Both the position numbers and the translations under genes were made by a program. A stretch of DNA of 45,655 bases from Candidatus Heimdallarchaeota archaeon (GTDB taxonomy: Archaea; Asgardarchaeota; Heimdallarchaeia; Heimdallarchaeales; Heimdallarchaeaceae): positions 1 to 45,655 of the forward strand of contig JAHLWR010000028.1 of NCBI GenBank assembly GCA_019057815.1. Direction: 5' to 3'. The notes beneath the pieces were generated by a model. It worked only from the letters and a program-made list of their open reading frames with translations. It was not told where the DNA came from and made no database searches. Shown here one piece after another: positions 318 through 24,628 of the stretch (position 1 is the stretch's first letter; every line of letters begins with the position of its first letter).

Positions 318-1466
318 CTAGTCGATTTTTAGTTCTAGATAAGATTTTCTTATAGTTTCTTCTTGGTCTAATATGCTTTTTCTACTATCCCTACCTGCTT
401 CTAAAATCTCCCAAAACCTGTCAACATAATCAGGATGAATACCCGTTAAAACTCCTCTTATTGATAGAATCGGTTCTTCAACTGTTGTTAGAGATATTTT
501 AATACTCCCTTTTTCAAATCTTTTTTCTATCTTTCTTGTTTCAAAAGTTGTTTGAGCTGAAAGCGGTGTTGTTATTGTCAGATACCCTCTTTTAGCTCTT
601 GTAACATCAGCTGTTAAACTTGAATTTTCATCCAATTCACTGAAGAACAAATCAGAAAACCTGAGATTTTGCACTTTTTCTATTTCATCGTACTCTTTAT
701 CCATAGCTATGATAATACCAATACCTGTAGCTTCTTTGCCAAAGGCAGCGAAAAAGTCATTTAAGTCCGCATTGTATTCTTCATGATTGCTTTCTTGTAG
801 AGAAAACAAGATAGTTGTAGTAAGCGTCTCTGCTAGAAGGTTATTGCTCTGTTTCAAAGCTTCTGATAGCGATTCATCTTCGAATTTCTTTAAGAGTTTT
901 TCATTGTCAAATAACAAGATTGGGCTGTAAGGTCCTTTGAAATCGAACCCTAGGAAGTGAAGCGCTTTTGCAGCATTGTATTGGATAAGAGAAGATTCGT
1001 CTTTTTCAGGAGCTATGAAAACAATAGTTGGAGAATCTCCTGTTATATCTTTAATCATCTTACCTGCGAGCATGGAGACGGCAGCACCAGTACCTCCTCC
1101 ACTTCCAATGATAAGATGTAAGGCTTTATGATCTTCACCTTCTCTTCTTGTATCAGAACTCTTGTAAAAAACAACTTTTTCTATCTTATCTTTTAACTCG
1201 TGGTTCTTGCTTTCCAAAATTTTCGCGACTTCATTTATTTCACCGTTTGAAGAAGATTCTTTTCTTCCGAACCAGTATTTATCGCTAAAATTGTCAATTT
1301 GCGGAGTAAAATTATCTACTTGGTTAATGGCAAGAGATCGGACATTGATGTCATTTTCTTTAAATTTTTGTACTATAAGATCTCCAACTCTACAACCAGC
1401 ATTCCCAGCACCAATAATAGTGATAGATATTTTCTTTCCAAACAATTTTCGTTTTAACCAAGACAT
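318..1466 (-). CDS. Tubulin/FtsZ-superfamily GTPase (divergent CetZ/FtsZ-like)
   Basis: T1-like IIGAGNAGCRVG, signature GSGGGTGAA, PEKDE, LLFDNEKL and T7-like YNADLNDF. Start moved to the ATG at 1466 (MSWLKRKLFG), just after the upstream gene's stop. Confidence 0.85.
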   Translation of the reverse strand: MSWLKRKLFGKKISITIIGAGNAGCRVGDLIVQKFKENDINVRSLAINQVDNFTPQIDNFSDKYWFGRKESSSNGEINEVAKILESKNHELKDKIEKVVFYKSSDTRREGEDHKALHLIIGSGGGTGAAVSMLAGKMIKDITGDSPTIVFIAPEKDESSLIQYNAAKALHFLGFDFKGPYSPILLFDNEKLLKKFEDESLSEALKQSNNLLAETLTTTILFSLQESNHEEYNADLNDFFAAFGKEATGIGIIIAMDKEYDEIEKVQNLRFSDLFFSELDENSSLTADVTRAKRGYLTITTPLSAQTTFETRKIEKRFEKGSIKISLTTVEEPILSIRGVLTGIHPDYVDRFWEILEAGRDSRKSILDQEETIRKSYLELKID

Positions 1467-1468
1467 TA

Positions 1469-2839
1469 TTAACCCTCTCCTGCGACTGCTTTGATTATCC
1501 TTTGCATGTTTAAACCCCAAATAACAATAGCTGTCAAACTTTTGATGATTTTCCCTGTAGAAATTGGAACTGTTCGCATTCCAGCTATGTAACCCCGTAG
1601 TTGATACATTGTTGATGTTTCTACTTTTGCTACTTCTGCATATCTTTTATCAAACTCCATTACACTAGCAAAAATGTAATTGTCTAGTTCTATTAGGGCT
1701 TTAACTTTGAATTTCTTCATTTTGTTACCAAACAGGTAGATTGGAAAGACTATAACCAGCACTAAAATAACTGCAATTAGCACTCCAATTAATACAACAA
1801 AAACGCTCCACTCATATTTAGATTTTATGAAGAGAAAATCAAAGCCGACTGTAGGCATCTCTCCATTAACACCATAAATCAGCTGATTTAACCCTCCCAC
1901 AACCATGGCAATGGTAATTATTACTGCAGATAAAATTCCTGAGATTGGAATATTCTCAAGTTGTCGTATTGATCTTCCAGGAGTATTACCTAAAGCCCAG
2001 ATGATCTCATAGTTTTCTTTGTTTAGTAGAGTTCCATATTCTTCTTGATAAATACGAATTTTTTGTTTGATTGTTTTTAGCACTTTCGAATAAATTCTTG
2101 TATTTAAAATCATATAATAAGTTGCCAAGATAAAGATATATAGTAAAATAGGATTAAAGAAACACGCAACTATTCCAAAGAATTTAGCTACCCCTATTGG
2201 TTGTGAAAAAGAGTAATTTACAAGAGGGATAGAAATTCCTAATCCTGCTAATATTGATGTTATGATAATCAACGGATTGGTTGGTAATTTTCTATCATAG
2301 AACTTATTATAATAATCTCTCACTGGCTTTTCAAGCCATTCTATTCTCTTCTCCATAATTAAGCCTAGAAAACCATCATGAGTATATTTCAAGTAGAATA
2401 GAGACATTATCACTGCAATTATTATTGGAGTACTGACTGTGAAAAGTACATCTATAGCTTCTGGAATAGTTAGAGCTGTATGGGCTAGAATTATATTTGG
2501 GATCATTAAGATTAACACAAAAACCCACAACTTAGTGAATTCTCTCCACCTCATAGCTAATATTGTATTTAGTTTTACCTTAAAAAGTGCAATAGGGAAA
2601 CGATAAAATTTCTTGAAGGGGTTGAGTAATGCTTCAACATCTTTAGGATTTTCCACGCCTGCAGCTGTTCTAGGGAATTTCTTTTGGTGCTCTATTATTA
2701 AATTCTCAAAATCAAAAGAGGGGATATTAATCTTTTCCTTAGATTTTACTACACGAGCTTTAACTGAAATTTGATTAGTAGTAACAGATTCCATTACAGT
2801 ATCCTTTTTGTTTCGCTTCTTTTTAACATTTCTCATCAC
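1469..2839 (-). CDS. Polytopic membrane protein of unknown function
   Basis: 456-aa ORF with about 6-7 hydrophobic segments. Its stop is 2 nt before the tubulin-like start, suggesting an operon. Confidence 0.75.
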   Translation of the reverse strand: MMRNVKKKRNKKDTVMESVTTNQISVKARVVKSKEKINIPSFDFENLIIEHQKKFPRTAAGVENPKDVEALLNPFKKFYRFPIALFKVKLNTILAMRWREFTKLWVFVLILMIPNIILAHTALTIPEAIDVLFTVSTPIIIAVIMSLFYLKYTHDGFLGLIMEKRIEWLEKPVRDYYNKFYDRKLPTNPLIIITSILAGLGISIPLVNYSFSQPIGVAKFFGIVACFFNPILLYIFILATYYMILNTRIYSKVLKTIKQKIRIYQEEYGTLLNKENYEIIWALGNTPGRSIRQLENIPISGILSAVIITIAMVVGGLNQLIYGVNGEMPTVGFDFLFIKSKYEWSVFVVLIGVLIAVILVLVIVFPIYLFGNKMKKFKVKALIELDNYIFASVMEFDKRYAEVAKVETSTMYQLRGYIAGMRTVPISTGKIIKSLTAIVIWGLNMQRIIKAVAGEG

Positions 2840-2916: not shown

Positions 2917-4179
2917 ATGTCATGGATAACCTCAATTTTTGGAAAAAAGAGTAAGGGTGTCAAAGCTGATGTACCTGAACTCTTTAATGCTCTTTACGAA
3001 TTTAATCATGATAAAATAATCGAAAATTCCCAAAGCGTGGAAAATAAGCTAGATGGATGCAAGATTTCAGATACGCTTTTTCTTGAAGGGCTAAAAACAG
3101 TTGATACTATCGGATTTCTTTTTGTTGGTAGTGAAGGCTTGGAAACTCTTTCAGTAATGCACAGTATAACCTCTAATATCGCTACTTCATTGCTTTTGGC
3201 AAATGACGAAATTCTGAGTAACAATACTCTTCGAGTCCCAACAATCGAGTTACCTTCTATTTCAAAACCAAAAGACACATTTTTCGAAGGAACAAGATGG
3301 TATGAAAATAATGAAGAAAGAATTAAAGACTATGTGCAAAAACTAATAAAAGACATTTCTCTAGTTTTTATTTTTACAGATAATACATGTTTTAATTTTG
3401 GTTTGTTAAAAAAAATAATGGCTTTTATTAAGTTTCAAAAAATCCAGCCTGTAATTGTACTAAAACTTCCTCCCAAGAATACAGAACTATCAAACGAAAT
3501 TTCAACTTTGATGTTTATCCATTCAATTTCTCAAGCAAAAGAAGAGGAGAGTTTCTCATATTTACTGCTAGATGAAGAGCTACTTAAAAAATCAAATAAA
3601 ACCATTTCTTCTGATGTGCTAACTAAAAAATTCCAACACCGTATTGCTACTGTGATTGTTGATCTCATTTCAGCAAGCCAAATGCCTTCAAAATTCTATC
3701 AAATAGATCAATCTAATTTCATCCGAATATTCGATAATTGTTTGGGACCATGCAAACTCTTATCTTATGAAATTTACGACGATAAACCTTCACTATCAGG
3801 GTTATTAAAAGACTTGAAATTGGCTGAAACCTTCAACACTAGGCAACAAGCAACTCGAGGTTTTTTAGTTATTCAACCAGGACCTAAGGGGTTGCAAACT
3901 AAAGAATATAGATTTATGAGAAACAGATTCTCTAAAATAGATGTTGTTTTTTCAATTCTTGAAGAAAGAAAAAGAGGGTCGTTAGTAAGAGGAATACTGA
4001 CATTTAATGAGACACCTAAAATACTCTTAGAGCGTTACACCACTTTTTCAGATATAATAATAGAAATAGTTAATGATGAAGATCAAGTTATTGGCTACGC
4101 CGACATGAGTGAGATAGAGAAACTATGGGATATTGAGCATTATTACATAAGACCACGTCCAAAACCAGAAAAGAAATAA
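2917..4179 (+). CDS. Degenerate tubulin/FtsZ-superfamily paralog, probably GTPase-inactive
   Basis: Colinear with 318..1466: FLFVGSEG, PVIVLKLPPKNTE, YLLLDEELL, YQIDQSNF, ATRGFLVI, VRGILT. The GGGTG motif is absent. Confidence 0.65.
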   Translation: MSWITSIFGKKSKGVKADVPELFNALYEFNHDKIIENSQSVENKLDGCKISDTLFLEGLKTVDTIGFLFVGSEGLETLSVMHSITSNIATSLLLANDEILSNNTLRVPTIELPSISKPKDTFFEGTRWYENNEERIKDYVQKLIKDISLVFIFTDNTCFNFGLLKKIMAFIKFQKIQPVIVLKLPPKNTELSNEISTLMFIHSISQAKEEESFSYLLLDEELLKKSNKTISSDVLTKKFQHRIATVIVDLISASQMPSKFYQIDQSNFIRIFDNCLGPCKLLSYEIYDDKPSLSGLLKDLKLAETFNTRQQATRGFLVIQPGPKGLQTKEYRFMRNRFSKIDVVFSILEERKRGSLVRGILTFNETPKILLERYTTFSDIIIEIVNDEDQVIGYADMSEIEKLWDIEHYYIRPRPKPEKK

Positions 4180-4335
4180 TTGATTTTTAACCAAAAATTT
4201 TTTTTTCTTTAAGCTAGTAATATTCAACCAAAAAGTATATAATTGCTCTTTCACCAGCCTTCTTAAAGTGTCTCTCAAAAATGCGTTATATAAATTTTGG
4301 GTGACAAGCAGTATTAGTATAAAGAGGAATAAACT

Positions 4336-7326
4336 ATGCGACGTGAGTTTCGTATACTAATTGGTATTTCAATTATAGGACTTACATTAGGGTCCTCAAT
4401 TGCATTGGGTATACTTTTACCTTTAAAATCTCAAGATATTATGGAAGAAATCAACGATGATTTATTAGATTTCAGTCAAATAAACTTAAAAGATTTCGAT
4501 CCTTATATTGGTTCAGATTCTAATTATTCAGATTTCATGTATATGGATGCAAGTTCTAACGATTCGAACTTCTCTTTTCAGACTAAGTTTGAATTCTTTA
4601 ATGTCAGCGATCGTAATGCTTACTTAGATTATAACACTCGAATATCCTATATGTACGTTCCTGGAGAGTTAGTATTTGATACTTATCAAGTTAGATATGT
4701 TAAAGAATACAATTTCGAAGAGGGTTATTTTGTTTATGCAACTAAAAAATTATATCTTCTAAACACTGACTCTAACATATCTCTCAAAGGTACTGAAAAA
4801 GTACTAAACTTCAACTATATGTGGCCTTACTACGTGAAAAACTTTGGTAACGGAACAGAATATGGTTTTCAAGCATATATCGCCGCTTTCCTTATCCAGC
4901 AAGAATTAAACCAAACAGAAGGATATGATGAAAGTGATCTTGCATATTTGGTTCTCAATCAAAATTACGCTGAAGCTGAAGGTATGATTTCTTTGTCTAC
5001 CTATCTCCCACATAACTGGTTAGGTGTAAGACCAGCCTATATCTATCCTCAATTTGATAGACCAACAAGTTACAGGATTTTATATAATGCTATATATAAT
5101 GGTCATGATTATTCTGTACTAACTGGAGAACCAGGTAGCCCTAAATTTTTCTTAGATTTAATTCAAGGTCTTTATTATGATTCATCAGTTTTAAGTGTAG
5201 ATGTTGTTCAATTACTCGCTGATATATATGGGATAGATACAGTACCTGAGCTGGAATACGCAAAATCTTTTGCTGCTTATATGAAGTTTCTATTAGGGCA
5301 ACCATCTTTAGATTGGCTATACGGAAATGGTATCTCATACATTTGTAAGAGGACGACGTTGGAATGGATTATAGGAATTGAAGACCCACTATTTGGTGGT
5401 AAAAGATTTCCATTAATCTCAAATGACACTATTGAAATAGAAACTGATTGGGAAACTGAGCTTCATTATGTCGCAAACACAGGTTCAAATAATATTACAA
5501 AAGTAGCTTTGCTTATCGGAATAGCTAATATTCCAAGTTTTGAGGGAGCTTATTCCACTGAAATTATAGTTGACGAAGAACGAAATTTAGCTTATGTAAT
5601 CGAAGACAATATTGGAGTAAAAATAGTTGATCTAAACAGTTCCTTGTTTATGGCTGTTGCAGAATATAGTGACTTTGAATTCGATAAAGGAATTGTTGAA
5701 GCAATAACATATTCTGGAAACTTTGTCTTTGTTGCTGAAGGTGAAAGTGGTCTGGAAGTACTGGATACTTCTAACCTAGTGGATGTAAAAACGGTTTACC
5801 AAAGTGAGCTAAGCGAAGTCTCCAAGGATATGCGAGATGTAGCTATGGCAGAAGGTCCTTCACCAGATAATTATACAATATTAGCTGTAGCTAACGGTGA
5901 ACATGGTTTAGCACTTTTCGAGTTTGCAAACGGTGAACTTGCTAATTCTAACACTTTTGATATATCTCAAGGAATAGCACAAGACATTACAATCTATGGA
6001 GATTATGCTATTGTAGGTTTAGGAGAAAATGGTATTGTTGTTCTTGATATTTCCTCTCCAAATTCTGTTTCTGAACTAAGTTACTACAATATAACAAATG
6101 ACGGTGATTTGAATAATGTTCTTGAGCTTAAAGCTTATGATGATGTTCTTTACATCATTGATGAAGATGAAGGACTTATAATATATGATATAAGTTTTGG
6201 TTTCTTATTCAAAAGAGGGAAACTAGCTAATTCCGGAGGAGAAATCTATCAGAACCTACAAATCGCTGGAAGTAATGATATCTATCTAACAAGAGGTACA
6301 GCAGGTTTTGTTCATGTTGATGTAACAGTCTCTGATTTTCCAATAATCGTTGGAACATTCGACGAAACTGATGGTTTGAAAAGTTCCGCAGAAAGTATTT
6401 ATGTGGTTGGAAGCGATATTTACCTAGCTGATTTAGAACAAGGTATAGTACATATTGTCAACATTACAGCTACAGAGTATGAAGTTGTTAGAAGAGACGT
6501 GATTCACACATATGTAGAATGCTGGAAAAGTTATAATAAAGTTCAGTTTAGTAATTGGCAATTCAAAAACTATGAATGGATCGACACGGTTACAGACACA
6601 TATGATTTCTTTAATTTATATAATAATGTAGAACGAGGGCTAAGATTGCAGTGGTCAGAACAATACTTTAGACCTTTCATATTTTCATCACTAAGAGACA
6701 CTGGTCTATTCAAAGACGAAATAGCTTTTGTCTATCAAGCAGAAGCACAGATACCTTATTTACAATTAGACACCTATGATTTATATGGTCAAGAGTATGC
6801 AGATTTCATACCTTCTACATTCGTACATGTAGGAATTTGGGACAAAATGTATCCAGAACTGGATTTGACTATCAACGATTTCAATCTTACCCATTCTTTC
6901 CCTGGAAGGTTACGTGATGAGTTTCATATGCAATATATGTCTGTTGAACCAATTTCTGGATCAGTTGTAGAAAAAAGAGATCGAGTTCAATTTAATACAA
7001 GAGTATCACAATATGATGAAGAAATATATTCACTGTTGGCTGATACAGTTCCGATAACACAACTTGCATTCTACTACTATAATACTTGGCACTCTACATA
7101 TGCAGGAATGACCGCTGATATGGCAGAATTATATTGGCAAGAAGATGTAATACTAGGAACATTTACCCTATCAGATAAGCTAAAAGAAGATTTCTTAAAT
7201 AAAATTGATCTAGCTGATGCTTTCCGTACTTCTGGAGCTTTTTCTGCAATGTTTGTGATAGCTCTTGGTTTTGTAGCTACTTCAGTTGTATTGCACAAAA
7301 CTAAAATGAAACCCAAAATTAAATGA
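4336..7326 (+). CDS. Membrane-anchored surface protein: CD36/LIMP-2-like scaffold with inserted LVIVD-repeat beta-propeller
   Basis: TM helices at both termini. CD36-like motifs FEFFNVS, RTTLEWIIGIEDPLF, NTGSNNITKVALL and VEPISGSVVEKRDRVQFN. Central repeats such as FVFVAEGESGLEVLDTSN and YAIVGLGENGIVVLDISSP. Confidence 0.7.
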   Translation: MRREFRILIGISIIGLTLGSSIALGILLPLKSQDIMEEINDDLLDFSQINLKDFDPYIGSDSNYSDFMYMDASSNDSNFSFQTKFEFFNVSDRNAYLDYNTRISYMYVPGELVFDTYQVRYVKEYNFEEGYFVYATKKLYLLNTDSNISLKGTEKVLNFNYMWPYYVKNFGNGTEYGFQAYIAAFLIQQELNQTEGYDESDLAYLVLNQNYAEAEGMISLSTYLPHNWLGVRPAYIYPQFDRPTSYRILYNAIYNGHDYSVLTGEPGSPKFFLDLIQGLYYDSSVLSVDVVQLLADIYGIDTVPELEYAKSFAAYMKFLLGQPSLDWLYGNGISYICKRTTLEWIIGIEDPLFGGKRFPLISNDTIEIETDWETELHYVANTGSNNITKVALLIGIANIPSFEGAYSTEIIVDEERNLAYVIEDNIGVKIVDLNSSLFMAVAEYSDFEFDKGIVEAITYSGNFVFVAEGESGLEVLDTSNLVDVKTVYQSELSEVSKDMRDVAMAEGPSPDNYTILAVANGEHGLALFEFANGELANSNTFDISQGIAQDITIYGDYAIVGLGENGIVVLDISSPNSVSELSYYNITNDGDLNNVLELKAYDDVLYIIDEDEGLIIYDISFGFLFKRGKLANSGGEIYQNLQIAGSNDIYLTRGTAGFVHVDVTVSDFPIIVGTFDETDGLKSSAESIYVVGSDIYLADLEQGIVHIVNITATEYEVVRRDVIHTYVECWKSYNKVQFSNWQFKNYEWIDTVTDTYDFFNLYNNVERGLRLQWSEQYFRPFIFSSLRDTGLFKDEIAFVYQAEAQIPYLQLDTYDLYGQEYADFIPSTFVHVGIWDKMYPELDLTINDFNLTHSFPGRLRDEFHMQYMSVEPISGSVVEKRDRVQFNTRVSQYDEEIYSLLADTVPITQLAFYYYNTWHSTYAGMTADMAELYWQEDVILGTFTLSDKLKEDFLNKIDLADAFRTSGAFSAMFVIALGFVATSVVLHKTKMKPKIK

Positions 7327-7396: not shown

Positions 7397-7434
7397 GATT
7401 TTTTTTTCTTCTTTTCTTTTCTTTATTTTTATTT
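7397..7434 (+). terminator. Poly-T/pyrimidine tract, likely archaeal terminator
   Basis: Long T-rich run downstream of the 4336..7326 stop. Confidence 0.4.
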
Positions 7435-7792: not shown

Positions 7793-10700
7793 TTGTCTGA
7801 AATCGTTACCAAAAAAATGAGTGCTGCAGCATTCTTTAATGATAATAGAGCCATCGCAGGTTTTGGTAATTCTATGAGAGCTGTTTTCACAAGTATTAGA
7901 GAACTTGTTGAAAATGGGCTTGATGCTGCCGAAAGAAGAGGAATCAACCCTGTTATTGGTATAGATTTAAGAAGATTATCTCAAAAAGAAATTCAGGAAT
8001 TACTAGACGTAAAACAGTATAGATCACTGGAGAAGCATTTGGATTTTCTCCAATTAACATGTATAGATAATGGAATAGGTGTTCCTGGTCATTTAATAGC
8101 TGAATTATTTGGAAGAGTGCTCACAGGCACAAAATATGGTGTTATTCAGACACGTGGAAGATTTGGTTTAGGCGCTAAAATGTGCTTACTTTATTCAATG
8201 TCTTCTGTCGATTTACCTGCTAGAATACGTAGTAGACATTTTTTGGATAATATGACTCATGAACTTCATTTAATGATAAATTTAGAAAAAAATGAACCTA
8301 TTATAATGGAAGAACATGAATATCTTCCTGGGGACCCAAATTACCTTGAAGAACCAGGAACAGAAATATCTATCACCTTTACAGGAGCATGGAATCTCGC
8401 AAAGAATAGTGTGAAAGAATATTTCAAACAACTTGCAATAATAACTCCTTATGCAAGTTTTAATATTAATCTCCCAGGAGATAAAGATGGTGAAATTGAA
8501 TCTTTTGAATTAGCAAGTGTCGTAGACGATATGCCACCTCAACCTGAAATCGTGAAAATTCATCCATGGGGCTGTGATATAACTCAGTTCAAATCAGAGC
8601 TTTCTGTTACACAATCTAAAACCCTTAGAGAATTCCTTGCTAACCATTTCATGGGAGTCACAGAAGATATAAGTAAAGATTTCTTCCAATTATTAGGAAT
8701 AGATCCATCAAAAAAACCAAAAGAAATAACTTCAAGCGAAATAAGGAGAATTGTTCATGAGGGTTTTGTAAAAGCCTATCAAGAAGCAAAAGAAATCAAA
8801 CGTAAAAGAGATAGAAAATTTCAGTTTGAACCACCTAGAGGAAGTGCTCTTTCTCCTTTAGGTTCAGGTAGGCTCAGGAAGGGGCTTGAAAAAGAACTTC
8901 AGCCAAAATTCGTTGAAGCAATAACTAGACCACCTAAAGCTTATTCAGGTCATCCTTTCATAATAGAAGCAGCTATAGGTTATGGTGGGGGAGTGAAGGG
9001 ATTTACTCATTCAAGAGCTTCAAGTACAGATAATAAATTCATATATCGTTACGCAAATCGTATTCCTTTAATTTTTGGAGCGGGAAATGACGTTATTACT
9101 AAAGTTGTTTCTTCCATAAAATGGAGCGATTATGGGTTAACAAAACAATCAGATCCGCTTGCAATAGCTGTTTCACTTGTAAGTACAAAGATACCCTTTC
9201 CTGAAACAAGTAAAGAATATATTTCTAATGTTCCTGAGATAGAGGAAGATATCAGATTAGCTTTAATGCAACTTGGTAGAAGGTTGAAAACCTTTCTAAG
9301 TCGTGCTAAAAGAAGAAGAAGAGAACATGCTCGATTATCCCGTTTTGTTAAATCTGCACCTGTAGTAGTAGAAAACCTCACTCAGATTCTTCAAAGTAAA
9401 AAATCAATATTTGCCAATTTCCTACAAGGAAATGATAGAATTGCTTCAGCTCTAGCGCATGGTGCTCCTAAAAAAGCAAAATTATTCATGCCAATTGGTA
9501 AGAACCTTTTCAGTGTGAATGTTTGGTGTCCATCCTCAATTAGAAGAATACTAAATTCTAATAATGTTGTAACACTTGCTGATTTTTTCAATACACCAAC
9601 AGATCAATTAGCAACTATTTTAGAACTAACAGAAAATCAAGTTAATGAGATAAAGGAAAAGACAATTGATGAATTTGATAGAGAGAATATCAGTCCATTA
9701 TTAGACAATACACTTCTAATAAGCAGAAATGTAGAGAAAAGATTTTCAAAGAAGGCTGATAAGAGTTTTGTATCACTTAAAGATGCTCTTTACAGACGAT
9801 GGATACAGAATAGTTATCATTTTTTGGCCACAGAAATTGATAAACTCCGTTTTGTTTCTAATTTATTAGAGAAACTGTTCGAGTACAAAAAAGAACTTCT
9901 TATCACTCATTTTAAATCAAATAAAAGGAAACAAAGGGCAATTGGTACACCAACTCCAACAATAAAGGTAGAGTCTTTAACATCATATTCCAAATTAAAG
10001 GTTGAACATCTATTCCCTTCTTTTAAACAATTGAAAGCCATGTTAGGTGAGAGCTGTGATCCTGATCTGCTATATGAGGAATTTATTTTTCAAATAATCG
10101 AACCTACAGGAATAAATTACCAAGCTGCTATAACAAAAGTGTTAGTTGAAAATATGCAGCAGACGTTCAAGAAACTGATTGATAAATTCCCTAATTTTTC
10201 AAAGATTAAAATAACAAAAATGAAACCTGATTGGACAGATGGGTATACTAAAAATGCTTTTCACAGAAGAAAAATCTCTACTATAAGCGATTTTGTTAAA
10301 AAGGATTCTGAAGACCTAATTTTAATTAAAGAATTAGAAAGGGTCTTATTTTCGAGATTTTCGGATGTTCTCACCAAAAATACAGATTCAATAAAGCTTT
10401 CAAAGTTGCCAATTTCCGGTCTAAAAGAACTTCAAGGTGATGTTAAAGCAACCTTGAATGAACTTTCGAACAACAAGATTAATACCCTAGCAGAGTTAGT
10501 AAAACTTCAAAGTCATGAAATAGAAGAAGATAGTTATTACTTATTTGCTTCATTATTATTGAAAGAAGCAAAAACCATAATTCTAAACCATCTAAATGAA
10601 ACCCAGCAAAGTCACGATATATCTCACCTTAAGATTATTCCACACAGAATAGAGGTGGAGTTGAAGAAGAATCAGATTTTCTCTACATCTTCTTTCTTAG

Positions 10701-13700
10701 CTCACCCCTCTGTTAAATTGAAGAAAATGGGATTTAGGAAAAAGGATATTAATAATATTAAAAAGCGATTGGGCACTCAGATTCCTTCTTGGCTCAAAAA
10801 TAAGGATATTTTCAATAAACAAGGCATCACAACTTTAGAAGAATTGTTCTATAATACTGCTTCAGAGTTTGTTCTATCTAAAGATGAAAAGAAGCAATAT
10901 GAAGAATCTACAGTAATTCTTAGAAAACCTTTAATCTTTGGATTACCTGAACTTAGGAATTATTCTAATCTTCTTAACAAAATTGGTATTAATTGTGTTG
11001 GTAGATTCCTCTTATGGCCTGTATCGGAACTGATGGAGATCCTTAATCTGAATAAAGAAGAGATACAAGTATTAAAAGATAAGTTATCTCCTAAGACAAT
11101 TAAACAAAACGCTGATAAATATGGGAAAAGTTTGAGCTCTTTAGTAAGATTTTTCCCAAGACTTTTGAAATACTTTGAAACACACAATCTAACAATACAA
11201 GACTTGTTTTATATTTATATATCAGAAAAAGCAGTATCAAATTCTGGTTATTGGAAGAAAATTAATCAGTTAAATGAATTCTCTCAATCAGATATAACTG
11301 AACTAACAAACTTGATTGTATTAAAATCGAAGAAGAAGACAGATTTTCAAGAAGCACTACTCAAATTAAAAATTAGGAATATCAAGACTATAAAACAATT
11401 TCTTGATTCTCATTCTAATGTTATAGAAACAGAATTAACTGTTGCTTCTGAAAGAAAAATAGCTTTAGAAATTTTATATAAAATGCAAAAAGGTGAAATA
11501 GAAGGATCTAATGCTTTTCAAAAACAAATGATTCTAATATGTGAGTTTGATAATTTTCAACATTGTCTTAACTTACCAGTTTCTAGAATCTCTAATTTTA
11601 CACTTAACGATTATGAGATATTGAGAAACAATGGTATTATGGGCATTCATCAGTTGTTTGAATATACAGAGAAAGAATTATCAATAATATTAGGAAAATC
11701 AGCAAATCAAATGGAAGCACTTTTAGGAAGTTTTAGTTTCGAAAAAGAAAGACTTCCATTTTATGAAAAAGCTGAAAGCGGTCAATACAAATCCCTCATA
11801 TCCTTTGATTACGAGGATTCAGAAAGGTTTTCATCACAAGAGATTGATTCATTGATTCATTCAGGGTATGATTCTATTGATCAATTGTTCTATTTAACGC
11901 ATCACTCTACTTTTTCATCCCCTATTGTAAATTGGAAAGTAATGGATAGGTTCAAAAAATTATTACGGTCACCATTAACTTTAGTTAGTTGGGAGAAAAA
12001 AATTCAGAAAACAATTATTGACGAAGAGACGCAAGAGGAAAAGCAAATAATAGAAGTTCAGTACTCAAGTTTAACAACTCAACAGCTGAATACTCTCAGG
12101 AGTAATAATCTCACTCGAATTATAGATTTACTTCTCTGTAAAACAGAAAAACTACAAGAAATATTGAAGATTGAGGAAGAAGAAGCTAAAAAGCTTCAAA
12201 AGAATATTCGAATAATTGACAGTGGATTAGATCTTTCAGAACTAGGTATTTTCAAACCTCAAATAGAAAGAATGTTAGAAGAAAAAGACATTGTTACTAT
12301 AGAAGATCTTTATTTCTCAACCTCAAAAGCTAATTGGAATATTCCAAAGGTACCTTGGAATTTGATAGATTCAATAAAGAAAGTCCTGAATCTCCAATTA
12401 TCACATCTTTCTGATATGCTTGATTCTGAGTTAATTAAGCAATTGGGTGAAGCTAATGTCAAATCACTTCTTGGTTTTATGTTAAGTACTCCTGAAGAAA
12501 TCATGGAGAAAACTGGAATAGCTGATGAAAGATTTGAAAATATCAAAAGTGGGTTAGATCTAGGTTACATTATACAATATTTCTCACTTCCTGTTTACTT
12601 TGTTCCTAAATTGTCATTCTATCAAACAGAACTGCTTAGGCAAAACGATATCAAGACTGTCATAGATTTTGTGATTACTCGTCCAGGAAAAATAAGTAAA
12701 TTACTTAACATGACCGAGAAAAAGGTGAGAGTTTTAGCTTCTTCGCTTTCAGTTCAAATACTAGAAGAGGAATATGAAGAAAAAGGTGTTTTTGCATCTG
12801 AAACAAAATTATTTGATCGAAGTGAACAACGTCTGTTATCAAAAGATTCAATTCTTCAATTTGAAGGTTTACAGACAATTCAGGAGTTGTATTATTTAGT
12901 TTCAAGCGAATATTATCAGCTTAATCAAGAACTGTGGTCAAAAATATCAGCTCTGAAGAAAGTATTATCACTTCCATTGAGGATATTTACTGATATTTCA
13001 GACTATTCGCTATCACTATTAGAAAAAGTGAATATAAAAGATATTTTCCAAATCTTGTTTATTCCAGATTCTGACCTAGAAGATCCTGTGCTATACAGAA
13101 CAGTTTCAATATACTCATCATCGATTATAGATTTGAGAGCATTCCATTATTTCGCTATGTTGCCTGCTACAGTCTATAATTCGTCCTTTTTCAGTAAAAT
13201 AGTGAAAAACATCCAAGATATGACTCTTGTAGATATTATCACTAACGAAAAAGTTATCGAACACTTGGTTACAAAAAATAGACAATATATTAAAGAACAT
13301 TACAATATAACTTTCATAAGATCTCTTCTAGAACTGCCTCTTCGAATTAGTCCGCTGTACATTAAAATACCAGCTAATAGAAGAGAATATTACAAAGATA
13401 TGAAAGTAGGACAACTATTGGAACTTTCTTTAACAGAAAATCCTGCAATAGCTCCCGTTTTAACCTCCATCAAAGAAATAGATTCATTTAATGAAGTGAT
13501 ACAAAAACTCTCTTTACCTATAGCTACAATGGGATTACCAAGATCATTAGCTATCAAATTAAGCAAATCTTCTGTTTTTACACTTATTGATTTCTATTCT
13601 TCCCCAACAAAGCAGTTATCAGAGATGTCTGGTCACTCTCAAAAATTAATAAGAGAAATCAAAGAAAACTTAGCTTATTCTGATATTATTAAGTACCATT

Positions 13701-16700
13701 CTTCACACGCTCATCCTATAATCGCTTCTTCATTTATTTCAGAGGAGCAAATTGAAAAACTTAAGAAGCACGGAATTAGCGATTTAGAAACATTATATTA
13801 TTCAGCTGATGTGTTGGGGATTTCTAGCTTACTACCAGTAGAATATTATAGAAAATCTAAAGAGATATTATCTGGTTCAATAAGATTCTTAGGCTTTCTA
13901 GCTTTCGATGAAATTAAAAAGCTAGAATCCATGAATATTCATTCTATTATTGATTTAGCCCTTTTAAGTAAAAAAGAATTAAAAGAAATAACAGGAAATG
14001 AGATATACACTGAATTCCATATATTAGATCTAATAGCGTTTGATGAAATAGCTGAAAAGCGATTACAAACCGCTATTCCATTAATAAGTTGTTCTTCAAT
14101 AAAAGAAGATTATCTTGATAAACTAAATGAGATTGGAATACATTCCGTACAAGATTTTATATCTAGAATAGCTGAAATAATAGAAAGTCATCCATATCTT
14201 GTAGTTTCAGATGTTTTTAGAGAAATACAACTATATTTATCATCTGTCTCTTTTGTTGGATTACCAATTGAACAAACTAATATGTTGATTTATTTAGGCA
14301 TTGAAGATATTCTAACATATATCACAGAAGACCCATCAACAATTGCAATAATTCTGCATACTAATACGAGCAAAATAATTTCTTCTATTAAAAAGCTATC
14401 TCCACAGAAAATTGCCTCAAAAGTTAAACTAAATGGGGTTAAATTAATTGACTTCTTACCTTTGTCTAAAGGAAGGGTTGCAAATCTAGTAAAATCAGGG
14501 AAAGAACTAGTTCAAGATCTTTACAGCTTGTATTATCAAACATCTTCTATTCCTTCAGTTTCAGAAGGAAATATAGAGCATTTTATAGAACTCTGCAATG
14601 CTTCTGTATACAGAATTAAAGATTTGTCTTTAAATGAAAAAATAGAACTGAGAAAACATAGAATATATCGTGTAATTGACTTATTAAGCAGCCATGGTAA
14701 TGTTTTGAGAAAAATATTTGGGAAGATTCCAGAGTCAATTAAGAAGATTAAAACAGGGGAGTTTTCCTTATCAAACGGAATACCCCTCAACTTGAATGAA
14801 CCTATGTTAGAAATCTTAGCTGAAGTAGGTTTTGATTCTCCTAAAAAGACTGTAGAAGACTTATTCAGTTATGTGCCAGAATTACTCTATCAATACTCTG
14901 ATGCTGAACGAATCGAGAAAACTAAGAATGTTTCATTTCTAGAGCAGTTAGTTAGCTTCCTATGCCTGAATGTATTAACTATTCCTAATTTCGATCCGGA
15001 AGCAAAAATGGCTTTATGGCGCAATGGAATTAGACACATAATTGATGTGTTAGTAGTGAATGTAAACTCACTTACAAATATGCCAAAAAATATACAACAA
15101 CAGATTCGTCTTTATCAACGAGAATTCGATTTAAGTAGAAATATGTCAGCAACATTTTCTCCATTTATCAACCAAACAATTAATCTTCCAGATAATGTAA
15201 AAGAGAAATTCGTAGGCTATGGGATTAACAATATTCTCTTTCTAATGGATTTCATACCTCATCCAGTATTTAATTTCTCAAATGAAGAATTAGCTATACT
15301 CAGTAAAGTATCAGAGAACATTGTAAAACCGATTACATGGTTGTATGGGCAATTAAAGCTTAATATTAATAGTTTAATGGCATTCCTTTCACAGAAAGGA
15401 ACAGATATTCTTTCAGCTTTTCTCCTTCTATCACAACAAGATATACAAACAATTGATAATGCTTTTTCAGAGGATCTTCAAAATAAGCTCTATCATGCCA
15501 TCAATAAAGAAATATTAGATCTTAAGGTTCCAAATTGGGTAATAAGAATAGATCAAACTAATTTGTTTGCAAAACCCGAAATGGTAAAGAAACTTAAGAA
15601 AAAAGGTATAGAATTTCTGGATGAATTTCTTGCACTTGATAGCATTGCAGAAACTAGTAAAACTATAGATTTAGACAATATAAATTTGTTGAATTTATTA
15701 CATCAGATCCCAATATCTGTAATTAAGGAAATATCAACAGAGAATGTTGCAGTATTAACTAGTACGGGTATAGATACAACATATGATTTCCTTTATGTTC
15801 CTACACCTATTTTGTCAAAATTACTTAAAAAGAGTATTGAAAAAATTAATGAAATAAAATCCTCGTTCAAGCCTTCAGCTCTTATAAATAAAATGAAATT
15901 ACTTGGTCTAGATATAAATACGATACATACACTCCAAGAATCCACAAAGAAAATATTAGTTAACTATGGCTTTGCAACAATACTCCAGCTCAAAAATATA
16001 CAATTAGATAAGCTAAAAATTCCAAAAGAAGAAGTGAGGCAATTAACAGGTGCAATAACAGAATTGTATACTCCAATTACACTTCTTGGAAAGGTATTGA
16101 ATATTGAAAAAGAAATTATTACCAATCTTGTTTCTAGAGCAGTTTGTACATATGATGATTTGACTAAACTACCACTGCATAAATGGCCGAAAGAGTTTAA
16201 AGTGATACATACTAAACAGAAAGCTGATAGTTCCTATCTAAACAAACTACTGAAATCATCAAAGAAGAAAGGTATGTTAATCTCAGAATTGAATCTATCA
16301 AAACGACTATCTTTAGCGTTGAATGAAATTGGTATAATCACAATAGATCAATTATTGTTTGTTCCTAGCAAATGTATCGTTTCCAATACAAAAATTAACA
16401 AAGAAGAAATAGAGACTATAAGAGAAAAACTGGATTGCTACCTTAGTTATATACCAAATATATCGAGAGAAACAATTGAATTCTGTTTTCAAAAGGGGTA
16501 TACAAAGGTATCAGATGTTTTAATTTACTTTGATAAACTACCTAAAGATGTCAAAGAAGATATTCTAAAATCTGTATCACATATCAAAAACATTGAAGAA
16601 TTACAATTTATGGAACCATTATCTCCCACAGAACTCTACTTACAGAGGAAAGGTTTCAAATCATATAAATCGGTACTTTCTTCCCTTGAATTGAAGAAAA

Positions 16701-19700
16701 ACTATGAATTATCAAAGAGAATTGTTCCTATATTAACGGCGAATATAAGATTCCTGAATATCGATAAAAGTATCGAAGATAAAATAAAAAGAGCTCGAAT
16801 AACAACAATCTCGGATCTATTGATTCTCTCTCCAAAAACACTTTCTTCTAGAAGCAAAATTAAACAAGCTTTATTGAATAATATTATAGAATCCATAAAT
16901 ATAGACAAGGTGGAGTCTGAAATTGCTCATCAGAGTGGAAGGCATCTTGTAAAAGCTTTTTCCTTAACAAATAAAGATAAGAATACTTTAAAATCCTATG
17001 GAATTTATAATTTGTCAGATTTTAAAAATAATACTTCGTTCTCTTGGTTAATCCCAGAAAAACAAATTAAAGCAATAAGAGTAACAATTGCATCAAGTTT
17101 AGATACTCTATTACTGTTTTATACGAATATTGCAAAAATGTCACTTCTAGATATTGAAGATACATACTTTTCAAAAGGAATTTTCAACATTCAGGATTTA
17201 CTATCAATTAGTCAAGATAAAGAAGTTAAAGAAATTGAATCTTTCCTTACTAAGTTTGCAACAAACAGGAAGCAATTGATACAACAGTATTTGCCTGTTA
17301 ATGAGTTCCTTGCACCCCTTTCTATAAGAAACCTTTTCACTAAAGATACTCAAAAAATGAATATTAAAAACATCATAGACCTTAGTACATTCCTTTACTA
17401 TAATAAAGAACAATTAACTGATGAAGGAAAAGAAATTATAGCTGTTTTAAAATGCCCTATTTCGATTTTTGATGTTTTTAGCACTTCTGATATAGAAAAA
17501 TTAGCTGAAAAAGGCGTGAAAACTCTAGCTGATTTTCTACTGAAACCAAAGAATCTATTGATGACAATCATTCCACAAAAACTTGCTAAGCATGTTAGTA
17601 AGATTACAGAAATGATGAATTATGAAAATCTAAAGAAACAAAGAGATAAAGCTACACAAATTGCATCAATGAAACTTTTCGATCCTGAGATTAAGAAAAC
17701 TATTACCCAATTCTATACAACAATCAATGAGCTGGTATTTGCTGTTAAGAACAAAGTTTCTTTTGCTCCAAGACCAGTTGTAAGGAAAATAGAAAATTTG
17801 CTCAATACACCTATTCAGCAAGTTAAAATTCCTGGAATATCATTAAATTCCTGGTTAAAACTTATTGGAACCATAGATAACCTGGCTGAACTTTATGTCT
17901 TGTCAAATAAAGAACTTACGTCCTTACTTTCCATAACAAAGACCAAAGCAGCGAAAATTATAGTTGATATTGATGTAAATAGTATTGTCAAAGTGCCAAT
18001 AATACGTGAAAATCTCCTATTCGGTGCTTCTGATATTGCTATTTTAAAAGAAAAGCAAGTAACCAACTATTCACATCTTTACAAAAAAGACTTTTCAAAC
18101 TTTGCAATTTCCAGTATGCTACAAAGTAAAATTGAGATATTATTGAATTTAAAATTATCTGCAATTAATTCAAATATTAAGGAATCCTTTACACTTATTA
18201 CTCTTAATTTCCTTGGGCCTATAGTAGATACTTTAGATATTGAGAAAGAAAAGCAAACAACTTTTTCATCATACCATAAAATGCTTTTCAGTAAGGGTCA
18301 TTATTTGATCAACCTTATTCAAACCAAAATAAGCGAAGATGAAGAACTATTATCCAATTTTACGCTTGAATTTTTACTTCTAGCAGGAATCTACAAAAAG
18401 AAGATTTTCAATGATGCTCTTAATTCTCTTCAACCGCCTTCCAAGAGTAACTTGAATCGTTTCCTAAAATTGATTGAAAGATCTCCTATAATGCTTATCG
18501 GTGCAGGTTTAGATGCAATAGGAGCTGTTGCTGATATTCCCGTAACAACAATTAACGAACTATTATTAATGTCAGAAGTAGAGCTTAAGGCACTACCAAA
18601 TTATCGACTCTTCAATCAAAACTTGAAAAACTTGTCGTTATCCTTGCTGGAAGAGCAAAATAAGAGATTGATTAAGTTTCCAAAAGGAGTTTTACAGAAA
18701 GATGATAAAGCTGTTTTGGACAAAAACTTCATTTTCACAGTGGAAGATTCTTTGGTTTACAACAAGAAGTTTAAATCTAAGAAAACAGATTTGTGGAACA
18801 TTACAGAACGAATCAAAAACATAATGATGGTAAGCTTATATTCGTTAACGCCTATTGTTCAATCCAGAAATCTTCTTGATTTATTAACTTCTTATAAGAT
18901 TGATTCTCTTTACGAATCACTTGTTGCGAGTCAACAAGAGCCTCTTGACGAAAAACAAGGTATCATTGAAATGCTTAATCAATTAGAATTCAGCAAAATT
19001 ACCAAATATATGAAAGAAGAAAAACAAAGATTTAGTAATTTCATTGCTGATGATGAGCTAATGAACGCTTTATTAGAACAAGGAATTTCCTCTCTTGGTT
19101 CATTAATATCTATGACACAGTGTGTTTTAACTGATGAACACCCATTAGAATTAGAGCATGTTCTCCCGGCTTTACGAGCTCCTTTGTCATTAATTGTTGG
19201 AAATAAAATTATTTTAAATAAATTGCAAAAAATAGGTTTGGTGCAAGTTGCTGATTTAGTATTACCTCCAAATATTAAGCTGAATCTTGAAGGAACACTG
19301 AGTGAAAAAGAGATTGATATAATTCAAGAAATACGTAATAAAATGAATTTGCAGACTATTAACAGCTGTCTCAAAACTATCTATCCTTTATTAAATACAA
19401 ATTTCATTGATAGTGATATAAAGCACGCATTAATGAAAGCAGGATACAGTTCTATCAAACACCTTGAAGTTTCTGAAATTACTATCATCAACCAAACAAA
19501 ATTAAGAGAAAGTCATATCATCAAAATTAAGAAATTACTAAACACACCTATATATATTCTGTCAGAGTTATTGAGAGAAGATGTTCAGAGCGTTCGTAAA
19601 TTGCATAAGAAGGATAAATTCAACCTGTTTCAAGTGATGGAAACCGACATTAAAGAGCTTTCTACTCTGACCAAACTTCCTTCCAGACAGATAAAGGTGT

Positions 19701-20356: not shown

Positions 20357-21762
20357 TGGTAAACTATAAGTTTCAGATTAGAAATTCAACAATATTACCA
20401 GCAACAGAAAAGTTTGTAGCCTTTGAGAAAGAAACACCAATAAAGGAGATTCAGAGTTGGGTCAGTGATACATTTGATATGTCTAAAGCTTCTTTTCTTT
20501 TATTTTTAAGAAGTGGTAAAAAATGGTATAAACTAGAAGTACCAAAACTTCTGTCTGACTACAGTCTTCAAAAAGAAGGTATGAGAATTGATGTAAGAAA
20601 GACTGTAAATTTAAGTCAAGTAAAAGCGCTAAAAAAAGAACTTGAGATACTTAGCGAATATTCTATGCCTTTTGGAGTAATAAACGTTGAAACAACTTCT
20701 TCTGAAGAAACTAGCAACCGTTTGGTAGAAAGTGCCTTAGACTTTCTTAATCAAGCAATGTATAACCCTCTAGAAGCATCCTTCTATATACCCTCTCGAG
20801 GGGGTTCCAACATTGGTTTTGATGAGGAGCAAGAATTAATTTTAATAGGAAAGCAAATGATTGAAAGGCAATTTAGAAATCTTGCTTCCGTTAGTTCTGT
20901 AGAGCAACTATCTATTTTGATGCGATTGATATATGATATTTTAGCCAGAGACATCCATAGTACTAAACGTGATATATTCTATATGAATGTGAATGCATTC
21001 GAAAAACAATCTATTTCTGACACATTAATTGAAGATTTAGGAGCAATGTTACAAGTTACTCGATCTTCTTTAAATGTTAGTGCCTCTTCAAAAGGAATAG
21101 TAATTGGAAGGTTGAGTTTTAAAGAAAAGGGAGATTTTATTGATTGTAAAGCGATTGGTTCTGGAAAATCTATTTCTCCAAATATTGATGACATTGAAAA
21201 TATGGAAAGTGATGCTGAATTTTGTATAGTTGTCGAAAAAGACGCTATTTTCAACCGCCTTGCAGAAGATCACTTTTATGATTATGTTCCAAGTATTTTA
21301 GTGACTGCAAAAGGACAACCTGATATGGCGACAAGACAGTTTTTAAAGAAGATTAATGATGAATTGAAACTTCCTATTATAGCCATAATGGACGCAGATC
21401 CTTATGGTTTCGAAATTATGAGAGTTTACTCTGTAGGAAGTAAAGCTTTGAGTTTTGAATCCTCTCATCTAGCTGTACCCAATATTAAATGGCTTGGTCT
21501 TCTACCTACTGATTTGGAACTTGATAGTGGTTTTGATATTCCCAGACATGCTTTAATCCGAATGACTTCAAAGGATATTCATAGGTCAAAACTAATGTTA
21601 GAAGAAGAATTCGTTAAACGAAAACCAAAATGGAGAAACCAATTGCAAACCTTACTTAATGGTGGATATAAGGCAGAAATTCAAGCACTTAATGCTAGAG
21701 ATCCCCAATTTATCACTACCCACTATTTACCATCGAAACTTGAATCTGGGGACCTTATATAA
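20356..21762 (+). CDS. top6A: DNA topoisomerase VI subunit A (Spo11 family) with N-terminal ubiquitin-like extension
   Basis: Catalytic TKRDIFY, Toprim VVEKDA and DADPYG, C-terminal KAEIQAL. TAATG stop/start overlap with top6B. Confidence 0.95.
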   Translation: MVNYKFQIRNSTILPATEKFVAFEKETPIKEIQSWVSDTFDMSKASFLLFLRSGKKWYKLEVPKLLSDYSLQKEGMRIDVRKTVNLSQVKALKKELEILSEYSMPFGVINVETTSSEETSNRLVESALDFLNQAMYNPLEASFYIPSRGGSNIGFDEEQELILIGKQMIERQFRNLASVSSVEQLSILMRLIYDILARDIHSTKRDIFYMNVNAFEKQSISDTLIEDLGAMLQVTRSSLNVSASSKGIVIGRLSFKEKGDFIDCKAIGSGKSISPNIDDIENMESDAEFCIVVEKDAIFNRLAEDHFYDYVPSILVTAKGQPDMATRQFLKKINDELKLPIIAIMDADPYGFEIMRVYSVGSKALSFESSHLAVPNIKWLGLLPTDLELDSGFDIPRHALIRMTSKDIHRSKLMLEEEFVKRKPKWRNQLQTLLNGGYKAEIQALNARDPQFITTHYLPSKLESGDLI

Positions 21763-24036: not shown

Positions 24037-24043
24037 AACAATA

Positions 24044-24628
24044 ATGAGTTATATTAACACCTTGTTCTTGAAAATCATTTTAATTGGTGAAACTGGTGTT
24101 GGGAAAACAAGTTTAAGACGATCGTATTTAGGCGTCGGTTTTGAATCTGAACATCTTACAACAATTGGTGCAGATTTTGCATCGTTAGTTAAAAAAGTGA
24201 AAGATATTAAAATTACTTTCCAAATTTGGGATTTAGCTGGTCAAGACTTCTTTCAAGCTGTTAGAAAAGTCTATTATAAGGGGTCTTTAGGTGCTTTGCT
24301 GATTTTTGATGTTACTGACTTAACTACTTTAAAAGCGCTGGACAGTTGGGTAGATGAATTGGAGGAAAGTTCTGGTCGTGGAATAATTCCATTTTTTATT
24401 CTAGGGAACAAAGTAGATCTAATAAGTGAAAAAAAACTTGCTACAATTAAAATAAAAGCTCAAAAACATGTTGATAAATGGAAAAAAAAATACAAGAGTA
24501 GTGGGTTTGAAATCAAACTTTTTTTCACATCAGCTAAACTGGGAGAGAATGTTCAAGAAGGATTTGAAAGTTTAGGAGAAGAGATAATAGATTTTCTAGC
24601 TTTCAGGAAGAAACAGAGGGAAAATTAA
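24044..24628 (+). CDS. Rab-like small GTPase
   Basis: G1 GETGVGKTS, G2 TTIG, G3 WDLAGQ, G4 NKVD, G5 SAK. Confidence 0.93.
   Translation: MSYINTLFLKIILIGETGVGKTSLRRSYLGVGFESEHLTTIGADFASLVKKVKDIKITFQIWDLAGQDFFQAVRKVYYKGSLGALLIFDVTDLTTLKALDSWVDELEESSGRGIIPFFILGNKVDLISEKKLATIKIKAQKHVDKWKKKYKSSGFEIKLFFTSAKLGENVQEGFESLGEEIIDFLAFRKKQREN

What the first reader, a model, noticed from the sequence alone, without database searches (positions are those of the whole stretch)
4336..7326. Archaeal CD36/LIMP-2 (scavenger receptor B)-like protein with an inserted beta-propeller
Seen: two terminal TM helices, as in CD36 topology, and colinear motifs matching what I recall of the family. FEFFNVS matches FYFFNVT; KRTTLEWIIGIEDPLF matches HTVDELLWGYKD; NTGSNNITKVALL matches FNGKDNISKVAII; HMQYMSVEPISGSVVEKRDRVQFN matches HETFVDINPLTG..KRFQIN; LYWQE matches the MYLNE region. 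About 320 aa of LVIVD repeats (nt ~5550-6500) are inserted right after the NITKVALL motif. Known: the CD36 family comprises eukaryotic lipid-uptake and lysosomal receptors. Inference: a eukaryotic-signature lipid or cargo receptor with an added adhesion propeller.
Basis: partly seen in the sequence, partly recalled or inferred. Interest (0 to 1): 0.82.

Follow-up and report, generated by a model that had tools for sequence, protein, structure and literature searches.

The report
Archaeal CD36-like receptor with inserted propeller
This Heimdall-group (Asgard) archaeon encodes a surface protein, anchored in the membrane at both ends, that is a real but very divergent relative of the animal lipid receptors CD36 and LIMP-2 with a seven-bladed propeller spliced into it; I found no paper describing this receptor family in archaea, and its function is untested.

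Summary
Window 4336-7326 (+) is one 996-aa ORF with a TM helix at each end and a seven-bladed LVIVD propeller at residues 405-721 (nt 5548-6498).

The flanks are a complete, very divergent CD36/SR-B ectodomain:
- Pfam CD36 scores only 12.8 bits on this protein, but three 38-47%-identical orthologues pass the 26.5-bit cut-off, on colinear stretches.
- With the propeller cut out, the family profile aligns to canonical Asgard CD36 proteins (hhalign E 1.3e-9, 292 columns; controls score 14-24 against 86).
- Those canonical proteins match an animal LIMP-2-like protein at E 1.8e-33.

The gene is single-copy in 29 of 30 other genomes of the same family (Heimdallarchaeaceae by the orthologues' labels) and in 0 of 53 elsewhere in the class. 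Canonical CD36 genes show the opposite distribution, so this looks like a fast-evolved lineage-specific offshoot.

Lipid transfer and propeller-mediated binding are inferences. I could not examine the tunnel.

Earlier notes of this scan describe the same family on other genomes; I found no paper describing it.

The parts
4287..4328 (+). Likely own promoter and ribosome-binding region: TATA-like ttatataaa (4287-4295), about 41-49 nt upstream of the ATG, and GAGGA (4324-4328)
   Evidence: Read directly from the sequence. A T-run follows the upstream gene's stop, at about 4198-4206. This is inference only; no transcript data.
4336..4428 (+). Residues 1-31: 6-residue basic cytoplasmic tail and N-terminal TM helix
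   Evidence: Hydropathy peak at residues 5-31. AF2 helix 3-47. Aligns to the N-terminal TM of canonical Asgard CD36 proteins.
4429..4815 (+). Residues 32-160: N-terminal part of the CD36 domain (FEFFNVS sequon motif, GELVFD, NFNYMWPYY)
   Evidence: hhalign to canonical Asgard CD36 is colinear: E 0.003-0.009 with the TM, and score 23.3 without the TM against shuffles of at most 19.6. Orthologues match Pfam CD36 profile positions 56-223 here. hhalign to the Artemia LIMP-2-like protein gives E 0.0088.
4816..5340 (+). Residues 161-335: expanded, mostly helical segment at the position of the CD36 apex helices (about 180 aa from N158 to R339, against about 36 aa in the Artemia LIMP-2-like protein)
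   Evidence: Helices in both AF2 models. Position taken from the alignments. Canonical Asgard proteins also carry large inserts here. No match to any known family.
5341..5547 (+). Residues 336-404: CD36 middle part (RTTLEWIIGIEDPLF, NTGSNNITKVALL strand)
   Evidence: Part of the 292-column hhalign match, E 1.3e-9.
5548..6498 (+). Residues 405-721: seven-bladed LVIVD beta-propeller inserted in a beta-hairpin turn of the CD36 domain
6499..7161 (+). Residues 722-942: C-terminal part of the CD36 domain (ECW strand, PG..D.FH, HMQYMSVEPISGSVVEKRDRVQFN, LYWQED)
   Evidence: hhalign of A2 against canonical proteins gives probability 93.5, E 2.3e-7. Pfam CD36 E 0.04 at residues 862-895, profile positions 365-398. 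BLASTP E 2e-8 to P0186.
7162..7326 (+). Residues 943-996: juxtamembrane helix, C-terminal TM helix, basic cytoplasmic tail, and stop codon
   Evidence: Hydropathy peak at residues 966-989. AF2 helix 943-988. Aligned to the C-terminal TM of canonical proteins.
7400..7408 (+). T9 run followed by more T-rich sequence: likely archaeal transcription stop
   Evidence: Read directly from the sequence. Inference only.

Best explanation
The gene encodes a surface protein of the CD36/class-B scavenger-receptor superfamily, anchored by a TM helix at each end, with about 930 residues outside the cell. The N-x-S/T sequon excess suggests it is N-glycosylated. The CD36 ectodomain is complete but fast-evolved, and it carries two additions. 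One is an enlarged helical apex segment of about 180 aa. The other is a seven-bladed LVIVD propeller spliced into the turn between the 'NITKVALL' strand and the following 'ECW' strand. It is the single CD36-family gene of its family (Heimdallarchaeaceae by the orthologues' labels), where it appears to take the place of the canonical Asgard CD36 form. That much is shown here. By inference from CD36, SR-B1, LIMP-2, SNMP and the bacterial fold relatives LmcA/PgfA, the barrel most likely passes lipids or other hydrophobic molecules between an outside carrier or surface and the outer face of the cell membrane. On the same reasoning, the propeller and the enlarged apex would be the platforms that dock that carrier or surface. 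My confidence is about 0.9 for the identity and architecture and about 0.4 for the lipid-transfer mechanism.
Against: This protein's own Pfam CD36 score (12.8 bits, E 0.04) is below the cut-off. The family profile finds no CD36, LIMP-2 or SR-B1 chain in PDB sequence searches. The N-terminal half is only weakly supported by sequence alone: score 23.3 without the TM, against shuffles of at most 19.6. The family-only AF2 model was unconfident in the flanks. The good model used an alignment that contained canonical CD36 sequences, so it is not independent of the homology claim. The eukaryotic disulfides are not kept; the protein has only two Cys. The stem branch is very long, 3.83 changes per site, which is compatible with a change of function. 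I had no coordinates, so the tunnel was not examined. There are no expression or binding data.
Confidence: 0.75

Rival explanations
1. It is a true CD36 homologue, but the barrel no longer moves lipids. It serves as a rigid, doubly anchored stalk that presents the propeller and the enlarged apex, so the protein is chiefly an adhesin or a cell-envelope or S-layer organiser.
For: The stem branch is very long (3.83 changes per site) and most sequence identity to canonical forms has been lost (14-18%). LVIVD propellers are typical of prokaryotic surface proteins. The protein is strictly single-copy and near-universal in the family, as expected of an envelope component.
Against: The hallmark CD36 motifs are still invariant or nearly so across the family: H864, E871-P872, G875, R883, Q885, N887, W934, N89, N160 and P164. 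That argues for retained constraint on the barrel itself. The whole fold is kept, with about 90% of LIMP-2 superposable.
Confidence: 0.2
2. The resemblance to CD36 is chance or convergence, and the flanks are an unrelated fold that merely shares a two-TM hairpin topology.
For: The protein's own Pfam score is below the cut-off. PDB sequence searches find no hit. The family-only model is of low confidence.
Confidence: 0.03
3. The gene was recently acquired from a eukaryote and then fused with a propeller.
For: Papers on the CD36 family treat it as eukaryotic (PMC10715195 surveyed Eukarya only).
Against: Its nearest relatives are canonical Asgard proteins, not the animal sequence. The gene is present in all five genera of the family with conserved neighbours. 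Its GC content, about 33%, matches the surrounding window.
Confidence: 0.02

Closest known systems
Canonical Asgard CD36-family proteins (annotated 'hypothetical protein', e.g. P0186 'Candidatus Heimdallarchaeota archaeon' and P0187 'Candidatus Kariarchaeaceae archaeon'; 600-1370 aa; Pfam PF01130 up to 238 bits)
   Same: They have the same two-TM hairpin topology and the same motif order. The apex segment is enlarged at the same position. The direct profile match is E 1.3e-9 and BLASTP gives E 2e-8. They belong to the same phylum, and some to the same order.
   Different: They have no propeller and are far less diverged from eukaryotic CD36 (E 1.8e-33 to an animal protein). They lie in different gene neighbourhoods. 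They are absent from this genome's own family, which carries only the propeller form.
Vertebrate class B scavenger receptors: LIMP-2/SCARB2 (PDB 4f7b) and CD36 (PDB 5lgd); Pfam PF01130
   Different: Identity is only 13-14%. This protein's own Pfam score is below the cut-off. The eukaryotic disulfides are absent. It carries a 317-aa propeller insertion in a hairpin turn and an apex segment of about 180 aa (about 36 aa in an animal LIMP-2-like protein). The host is an archaeon. Ligand and function are unknown.
Actinobacterial LmcA/PgfA (MSMEG_0317, Rv0227c; DUF3068/PorA, PF11271)
   Same: They are prokaryotic, membrane-anchored extracytoplasmic proteins with a CD36-like asymmetric beta-barrel enclosing cavities. 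They are implicated in lipid (TMM, lipoglycan) trafficking (PMC8972800, PMC9678360). PF11271 is precomputed together with PF01130 on canonical Asgard proteins.
LVIVD-repeat beta-propellers of prokaryotic surface proteins (PF08309)
   Same: The insert matches PF08309 at E 1.6e-9. It is about 30% identical to propellers of giant surface proteins and superposes on stand-alone LVIVD propellers (TM 0.76-0.83).
   Different: Here the propeller is not a terminal module of a secreted protein. It is nested inside another domain's hairpin, and it is the only LVIVD propeller in the genome.

Membership tests
CD36 / class B scavenger receptor family (Pfam PF01130) | Hairpin membrane topology: one TM helix at each end, short cytoplasmic tails, large ectodomain | tested here: met
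   Hydropathy peaks at residues 5-31 and 966-989 only. The tails are MRREFR and KTKMKPKIK. AF2 terminal helices.
CD36 / class B scavenger receptor family (Pfam PF01130) | Score over Pfam's gathering cut-off (26.5 bits) with the CD36 HMM | tested here: inconclusive
   This protein scores 12.8 bits, E 0.04, below the cut-off. Its full-length orthologues P0004, P0017 and P0038 (38-47% identical) score 27.3, 27.1 and 28.1 bits, and 17 of 25 members hit at E<=1 on colinear stretches.
CD36 / class B scavenger receptor family (Pfam PF01130) | Sequence homology along the ectodomain to bona fide members (profile-profile) | tested here: met
   hhalign of the spliced family profile against canonical Asgard PF01130 proteins gives probability 96.4, E 1.3e-9 over 292 columns. 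The N-terminal part is colinear at E 0.003-0.009. Controls score 14-24 against 86.4. The N-terminal part alone is weak. The canonical proteins link to an animal LIMP-2-like protein at E 1.8e-33.
CD36 / class B scavenger receptor family (Pfam PF01130) | CD36 fold: large asymmetric beta-barrel with helical apex | tested here: met
CD36 / class B scavenger receptor family (Pfam PF01130) | Conserved ectodomain disulfides of the vertebrate members | tested here: not met
   The protein has only two Cys (C337 and C729), and C729 is not invariant in the family. These disulfides are a feature of vertebrate members (my own knowledge), not of the whole Pfam family.
CD36 / class B scavenger receptor family (Pfam PF01130) | Continuous hydrophobic tunnel or cavity through the ectodomain | not testable with these tools
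CD36 / class B scavenger receptor family (Pfam PF01130) | Binding or transfer of lipids or other hydrophobic ligands | not testable with these tools
   This needs biochemistry. No expression data were obtainable.
LVIVD-repeat beta-propeller (Pfam PF08309) | HMM match over the cut-off and a propeller fold | tested here: met
   37.4 bits against a 20.2-bit cut-off, E 1.6e-9. Seven four-stranded blades at pLDDT 80-95. Matches to LVIVD propellers at TM 0.76-0.83.

The most novel reading that the evidence does not exclude
The doubly anchored CD36 barrel with its propeller and enlarged apex is a working scavenger-type receptor of Heimdallarchaeaceae. On this reading it docks onto lipid-bearing particles, vesicles or partner-cell surfaces and channels their lipids into the archaeal membrane. 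That would put a CD36-type capture-and-transfer function in the archaeal relatives of eukaryotes, before phagocytosis and lipoprotein receptors existed.
Probability: 0.12. Interest if true: 0.85.

Novelty: new variant of a known kind. Interest (0 to 1): 0.64.

Why it matters
In the papers I could search, CD36, SR-B1 and LIMP-2 are studied as eukaryotic receptors for lipid uptake, particle recognition and lysosomal sorting. The one broad evolutionary survey I read (PMC10715195) looked at Eukarya only. Here, 28 of 400 Asgard genomes carry clear family members. One whole Heimdall-group family carries a remodelled version with a propeller nested inside the domain. This pushes the family's origin back into archaea. 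It also gives a concrete, expressible candidate for how these cells, the closest known relatives of eukaryotes, handle lipids or contact other surfaces. Finally, it is an unusual natural example of a whole propeller nested in a hairpin turn of another domain, with the host fold apparently kept.

Tried and rejected
- PDB sequence searches with the full, N-terminal and C-terminal family profiles found no CD36, LIMP-2 or SR-B1 chain. The only hits were sub-threshold Vps4-MIT and PI3K-SH2 similarities.
- The family-only AF2 model had flanks with pLDDT below 50 and was not usable for fold search.
- Foldseek against the PDB with the good model returned only propellers in the top 50. The exhaustive VIA search was needed.
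- Feeding canonical proteins as N, middle and C fragments to get a cleaner alignment failed, because MAFFT scattered the fragments. The full-length alignment A7 was used instead. In it, the canonical middle parts are misaligned under the propeller columns (checked on A6, the 51-row version of the same alignment).
- A search with the N-terminal profile for propeller-less or split close relatives found only fragments of the same family.
- The large representative search was swamped by LVIVD propellers and showed only about 7 family clusters.
- The positional orthology test was negative. Canonical CD36 genes of sister families lie in unrelated neighbourhoods.
- This genome has no second CD36-like gene and no second LVIVD propeller.
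- The direct profile against a single animal sequence gave only weak, though colinear, hits (E 0.0088 and 0.025).
- Paper searches for CD36 with Asgard, archaea, Heimdallarchaea or LVIVD found nothing relevant.

Full report
**1. What is there**

Window 4336-7326 (+) is a single 996-aa ORF, P0001.
- A TATA-like ttatataaa lies 41-49 nt upstream of the ATG, and GAGGA lies 8 nt upstream. T-runs follow both the upstream gene and this gene. It is probably its own transcription unit; that is inference.
- Hydropathy finds exactly two TM segments, at residues 5-31 and 966-989. Both flanking tails are short and basic. About 930 residues should therefore face outwards.
- N-x-S/T sequons are about twofold enriched: 14 observed against 7.3 +/- 2.3 in shuffles. 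N89, N172 and N363 are invariant in the family.

**2. The insert**

- Pfam finds LVIVD repeats at E 1.6e-9.
- Both AF2 models give 28 strands between residues 405 and 721 (nt 5548-6498). That is seven four-stranded blades, with pLDDT 80-95.
- The ESM Atlas search returns stand-alone LVIVD propellers at TM 0.76-0.83.
- It is the only LVIVD propeller in this genome.

**3. Are the flanks CD36?**

Direct tests on this protein alone are weak.
- Pfam CD36 gives 12.8 bits, E 0.04, for residues 862-895 against profile positions 365-398.
- Family profiles find no CD36 or LIMP-2 chain in PDB sequence searches.

The family as a whole gives a clear answer.
- There are about 30 orthologues, 38-89% identical over the full length. 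Nearly all of those with a source name are labelled Heimdallarchaeaceae or Heimdallarchaeota.
- 17 of 25 hit Pfam CD36 at E<=1. Three exceed the 26.5-bit cut-off: P0004 at 27.3, P0017 at 27.1 and P0038 at 28.1.
- The matched stretches are colinear. Protein residues ~86-268 match profile positions 56-223, and ~865-910 match 361-402.

**4. Bridge through canonical archaeal members**

Following a lead from earlier scan notes, I searched 400 genomes of the phylum with PF01130.
- 28 genomes carry strong matches, up to 238 bits, E 3.6e-71.
- These lie in ORFs of 600-1370 aa whose two matched halves are separated by a large insert at the apex position.
- A profile of these proteins hits an Artemia 'lysosome membrane protein 2-like' protein at E 3e-56. 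By hhalign the match is E 1.8e-33 (C part, 305 columns) and 1.2e-10 (N part). So they are bona fide CD36-family members.

I then compared this protein's family with those canonical proteins by hhalign.
- The C part alone gives probability 93.5, E 2.3e-7.
- With the propeller columns cut out, the probability is 96.4 and E is 1.3e-9 over 292 columns. The alignment runs straight across the splice: RT..EW, TG..NI.KV, then the splice, then ECW and onwards to the HxxxMxVEPxTG..RxQxN motif, WxE and the C-terminal TM.
- The N part aligns colinearly (TM, FFNVS, GELVFD, NFN..P.Y) at E 0.003-0.009.
- Reversed and column-shuffled controls score 14-24, against 86.4 for the spliced profile and 34.2 for the N part.
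- Without the TM helix the N part is only marginal: 23.3 against shuffles of at most 19.6.
- Plain BLASTP of P0001 against the canonical Heimdall protein P0186 gives E 2e-8.

**5. Structure**

- The family-only model was unconfident outside the propeller.
- A second model used an alignment of 36 family rows, 23 canonical Asgard rows and the Artemia protein. It reached mean pLDDT 82.1 and pTM 0.77.
- Foldseek's list was filled by propellers.
- Because CD36 sequences were in the alignment, this shows consistency with the homology claim. It is not independent proof.

**6. Anatomy relative to CD36**

From the alignments, the protein differs from eukaryotic CD36 in three ways.
- The propeller replaces the turn of a hairpin. 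In the Artemia protein the turn lies between the strand 'DITKYATVHTW' and the strand 'RLNFW'. Here it lies between 'NITKVALLIGI' and 'TYVECW'.
- The segment between the N.N..P.Y motif and RT..EW holds the apex helices in CD36. It is about 180 aa here, about 36 aa in the Artemia protein, about 170 aa in the most compact canonical Asgard protein, and much longer in the rest.
- The vertebrate disulfides are not kept. The protein has two Cys.

**7. Distribution and evolution**

- The C-terminal profile finds exactly one copy in 29 of 30 other genomes of this genome's family, in all five genera. It finds none in 53 genomes of the other families of the class.
- Canonical PF01130 genes are found in sister families of the order and class and in one distant family (20 of 135 genomes). 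They are absent from this family.
- In a tree of the alignable columns, the propeller clade sits on a stem of 3.83 changes per site. It lies inside an unresolved Asgard radiation, and its placement is unreliable.
- The order '420-aa gene, then this gene, then giant topoisomerase VI-B' is conserved in three other genera.
- Canonical CD36 genes elsewhere lie in unrelated contexts.
- Reading: a lineage-specific, fast-evolved offshoot that took the place of the canonical form at the base of the family.

**8. Mechanism**

Shown: membership of the superfamily, the topology, the nested propeller, the conserved motifs and the single-copy conservation.

Inferred: a lipid or hydrophobic-ligand conduit between an external carrier or surface and the membrane, with the propeller and apex as docking platforms. 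The inference rests on two things. One is established knowledge of CD36, SR-B1, LIMP-2 and SNMP. The other is the bacterial fold relatives LmcA and PgfA, which have enclosed cavities and a role in lipid trafficking (PMC8972800, PMC9678360). The main rival is a scaffold or adhesin role with a defunct barrel.

**9. Novelty**

Paper searches found nothing on CD36-family proteins in archaea. The one broad evolutionary survey I read covers Eukarya only (PMC10715195). Earlier AI notes of this scan describe the same propeller-bearing family in other Heimdall genomes, and canonical forms in Asgard and marine Group II archaea. My tests agree with the former. I did not test the marine Group II claim.

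Noticed in passing
window 7793-20356 (+) and 20356-21762 (+): A 4187-aa ORF begins with a topoisomerase VI-B-like ATPase and is followed directly by a Top6A/Spo11 gene (Pfam TOP6A Toprim E 3e-58). The giant form is conserved next to the CD36-like gene in three other genera. An earlier scan note (e1-5592913) already covers it.
   Followed up: partly
window 318-1520 (-), 1469-2839 (-), 2917-4179 (+): A tubulin/FtsZ-like gene (Pfam Tubulin E 1.2e-7, just under the cut-off) and a 456-aa gene are transcribed divergently from a 420-aa gene with no Pfam match. All three are syntenic with the CD36-like gene in G014 and G018; G013's contig starts too close to show the tubulin-like and 456-aa genes. Scan note e1-5592917 covers this.
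   Followed up: partly
window 22297-26971 (+): Three tightly packed genes: a 579-aa protein with no Pfam match, a Ras/Roc/Arf-like small GTPase (24044-24628, Ras E 2.9e-36), and a 780-aa HEAT/Armadillo-repeat protein that starts one base after the GTPase stop. This may be a small-GTPase module of the Asgard type.
   Followed up: no
window 5047-5172 (residues ~238-279 of the protein): The enlarged apex segment has a sub-threshold similarity to the MIT domain of Vps4 (PDB 5fvk and others; E 0.06-0.17). I think it is chance, because this segment is extracellular.
   Followed up: no
L033-L036, L029 (canonical CD36 genes of sister families): Canonical Asgard CD36-family proteins range from 607 to 1367 aa, because the apex insert varies from about 170 to about 900 aa. 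PF11271 (the actinobacterial PorA/DUF3068 family) is precomputed together with PF01130 on two of the compact forms (P0186, P0187).
   Followed up: partly
P0027: One partial orthologue of the propeller-bearing family is labelled 'Candidatus Thorarchaeota archaeon' in NCBI, while the other named ones are labelled Heimdallarchaeaceae or Heimdallarchaeota. It may be a mis-binned or mislabelled contig.
   Followed up: no
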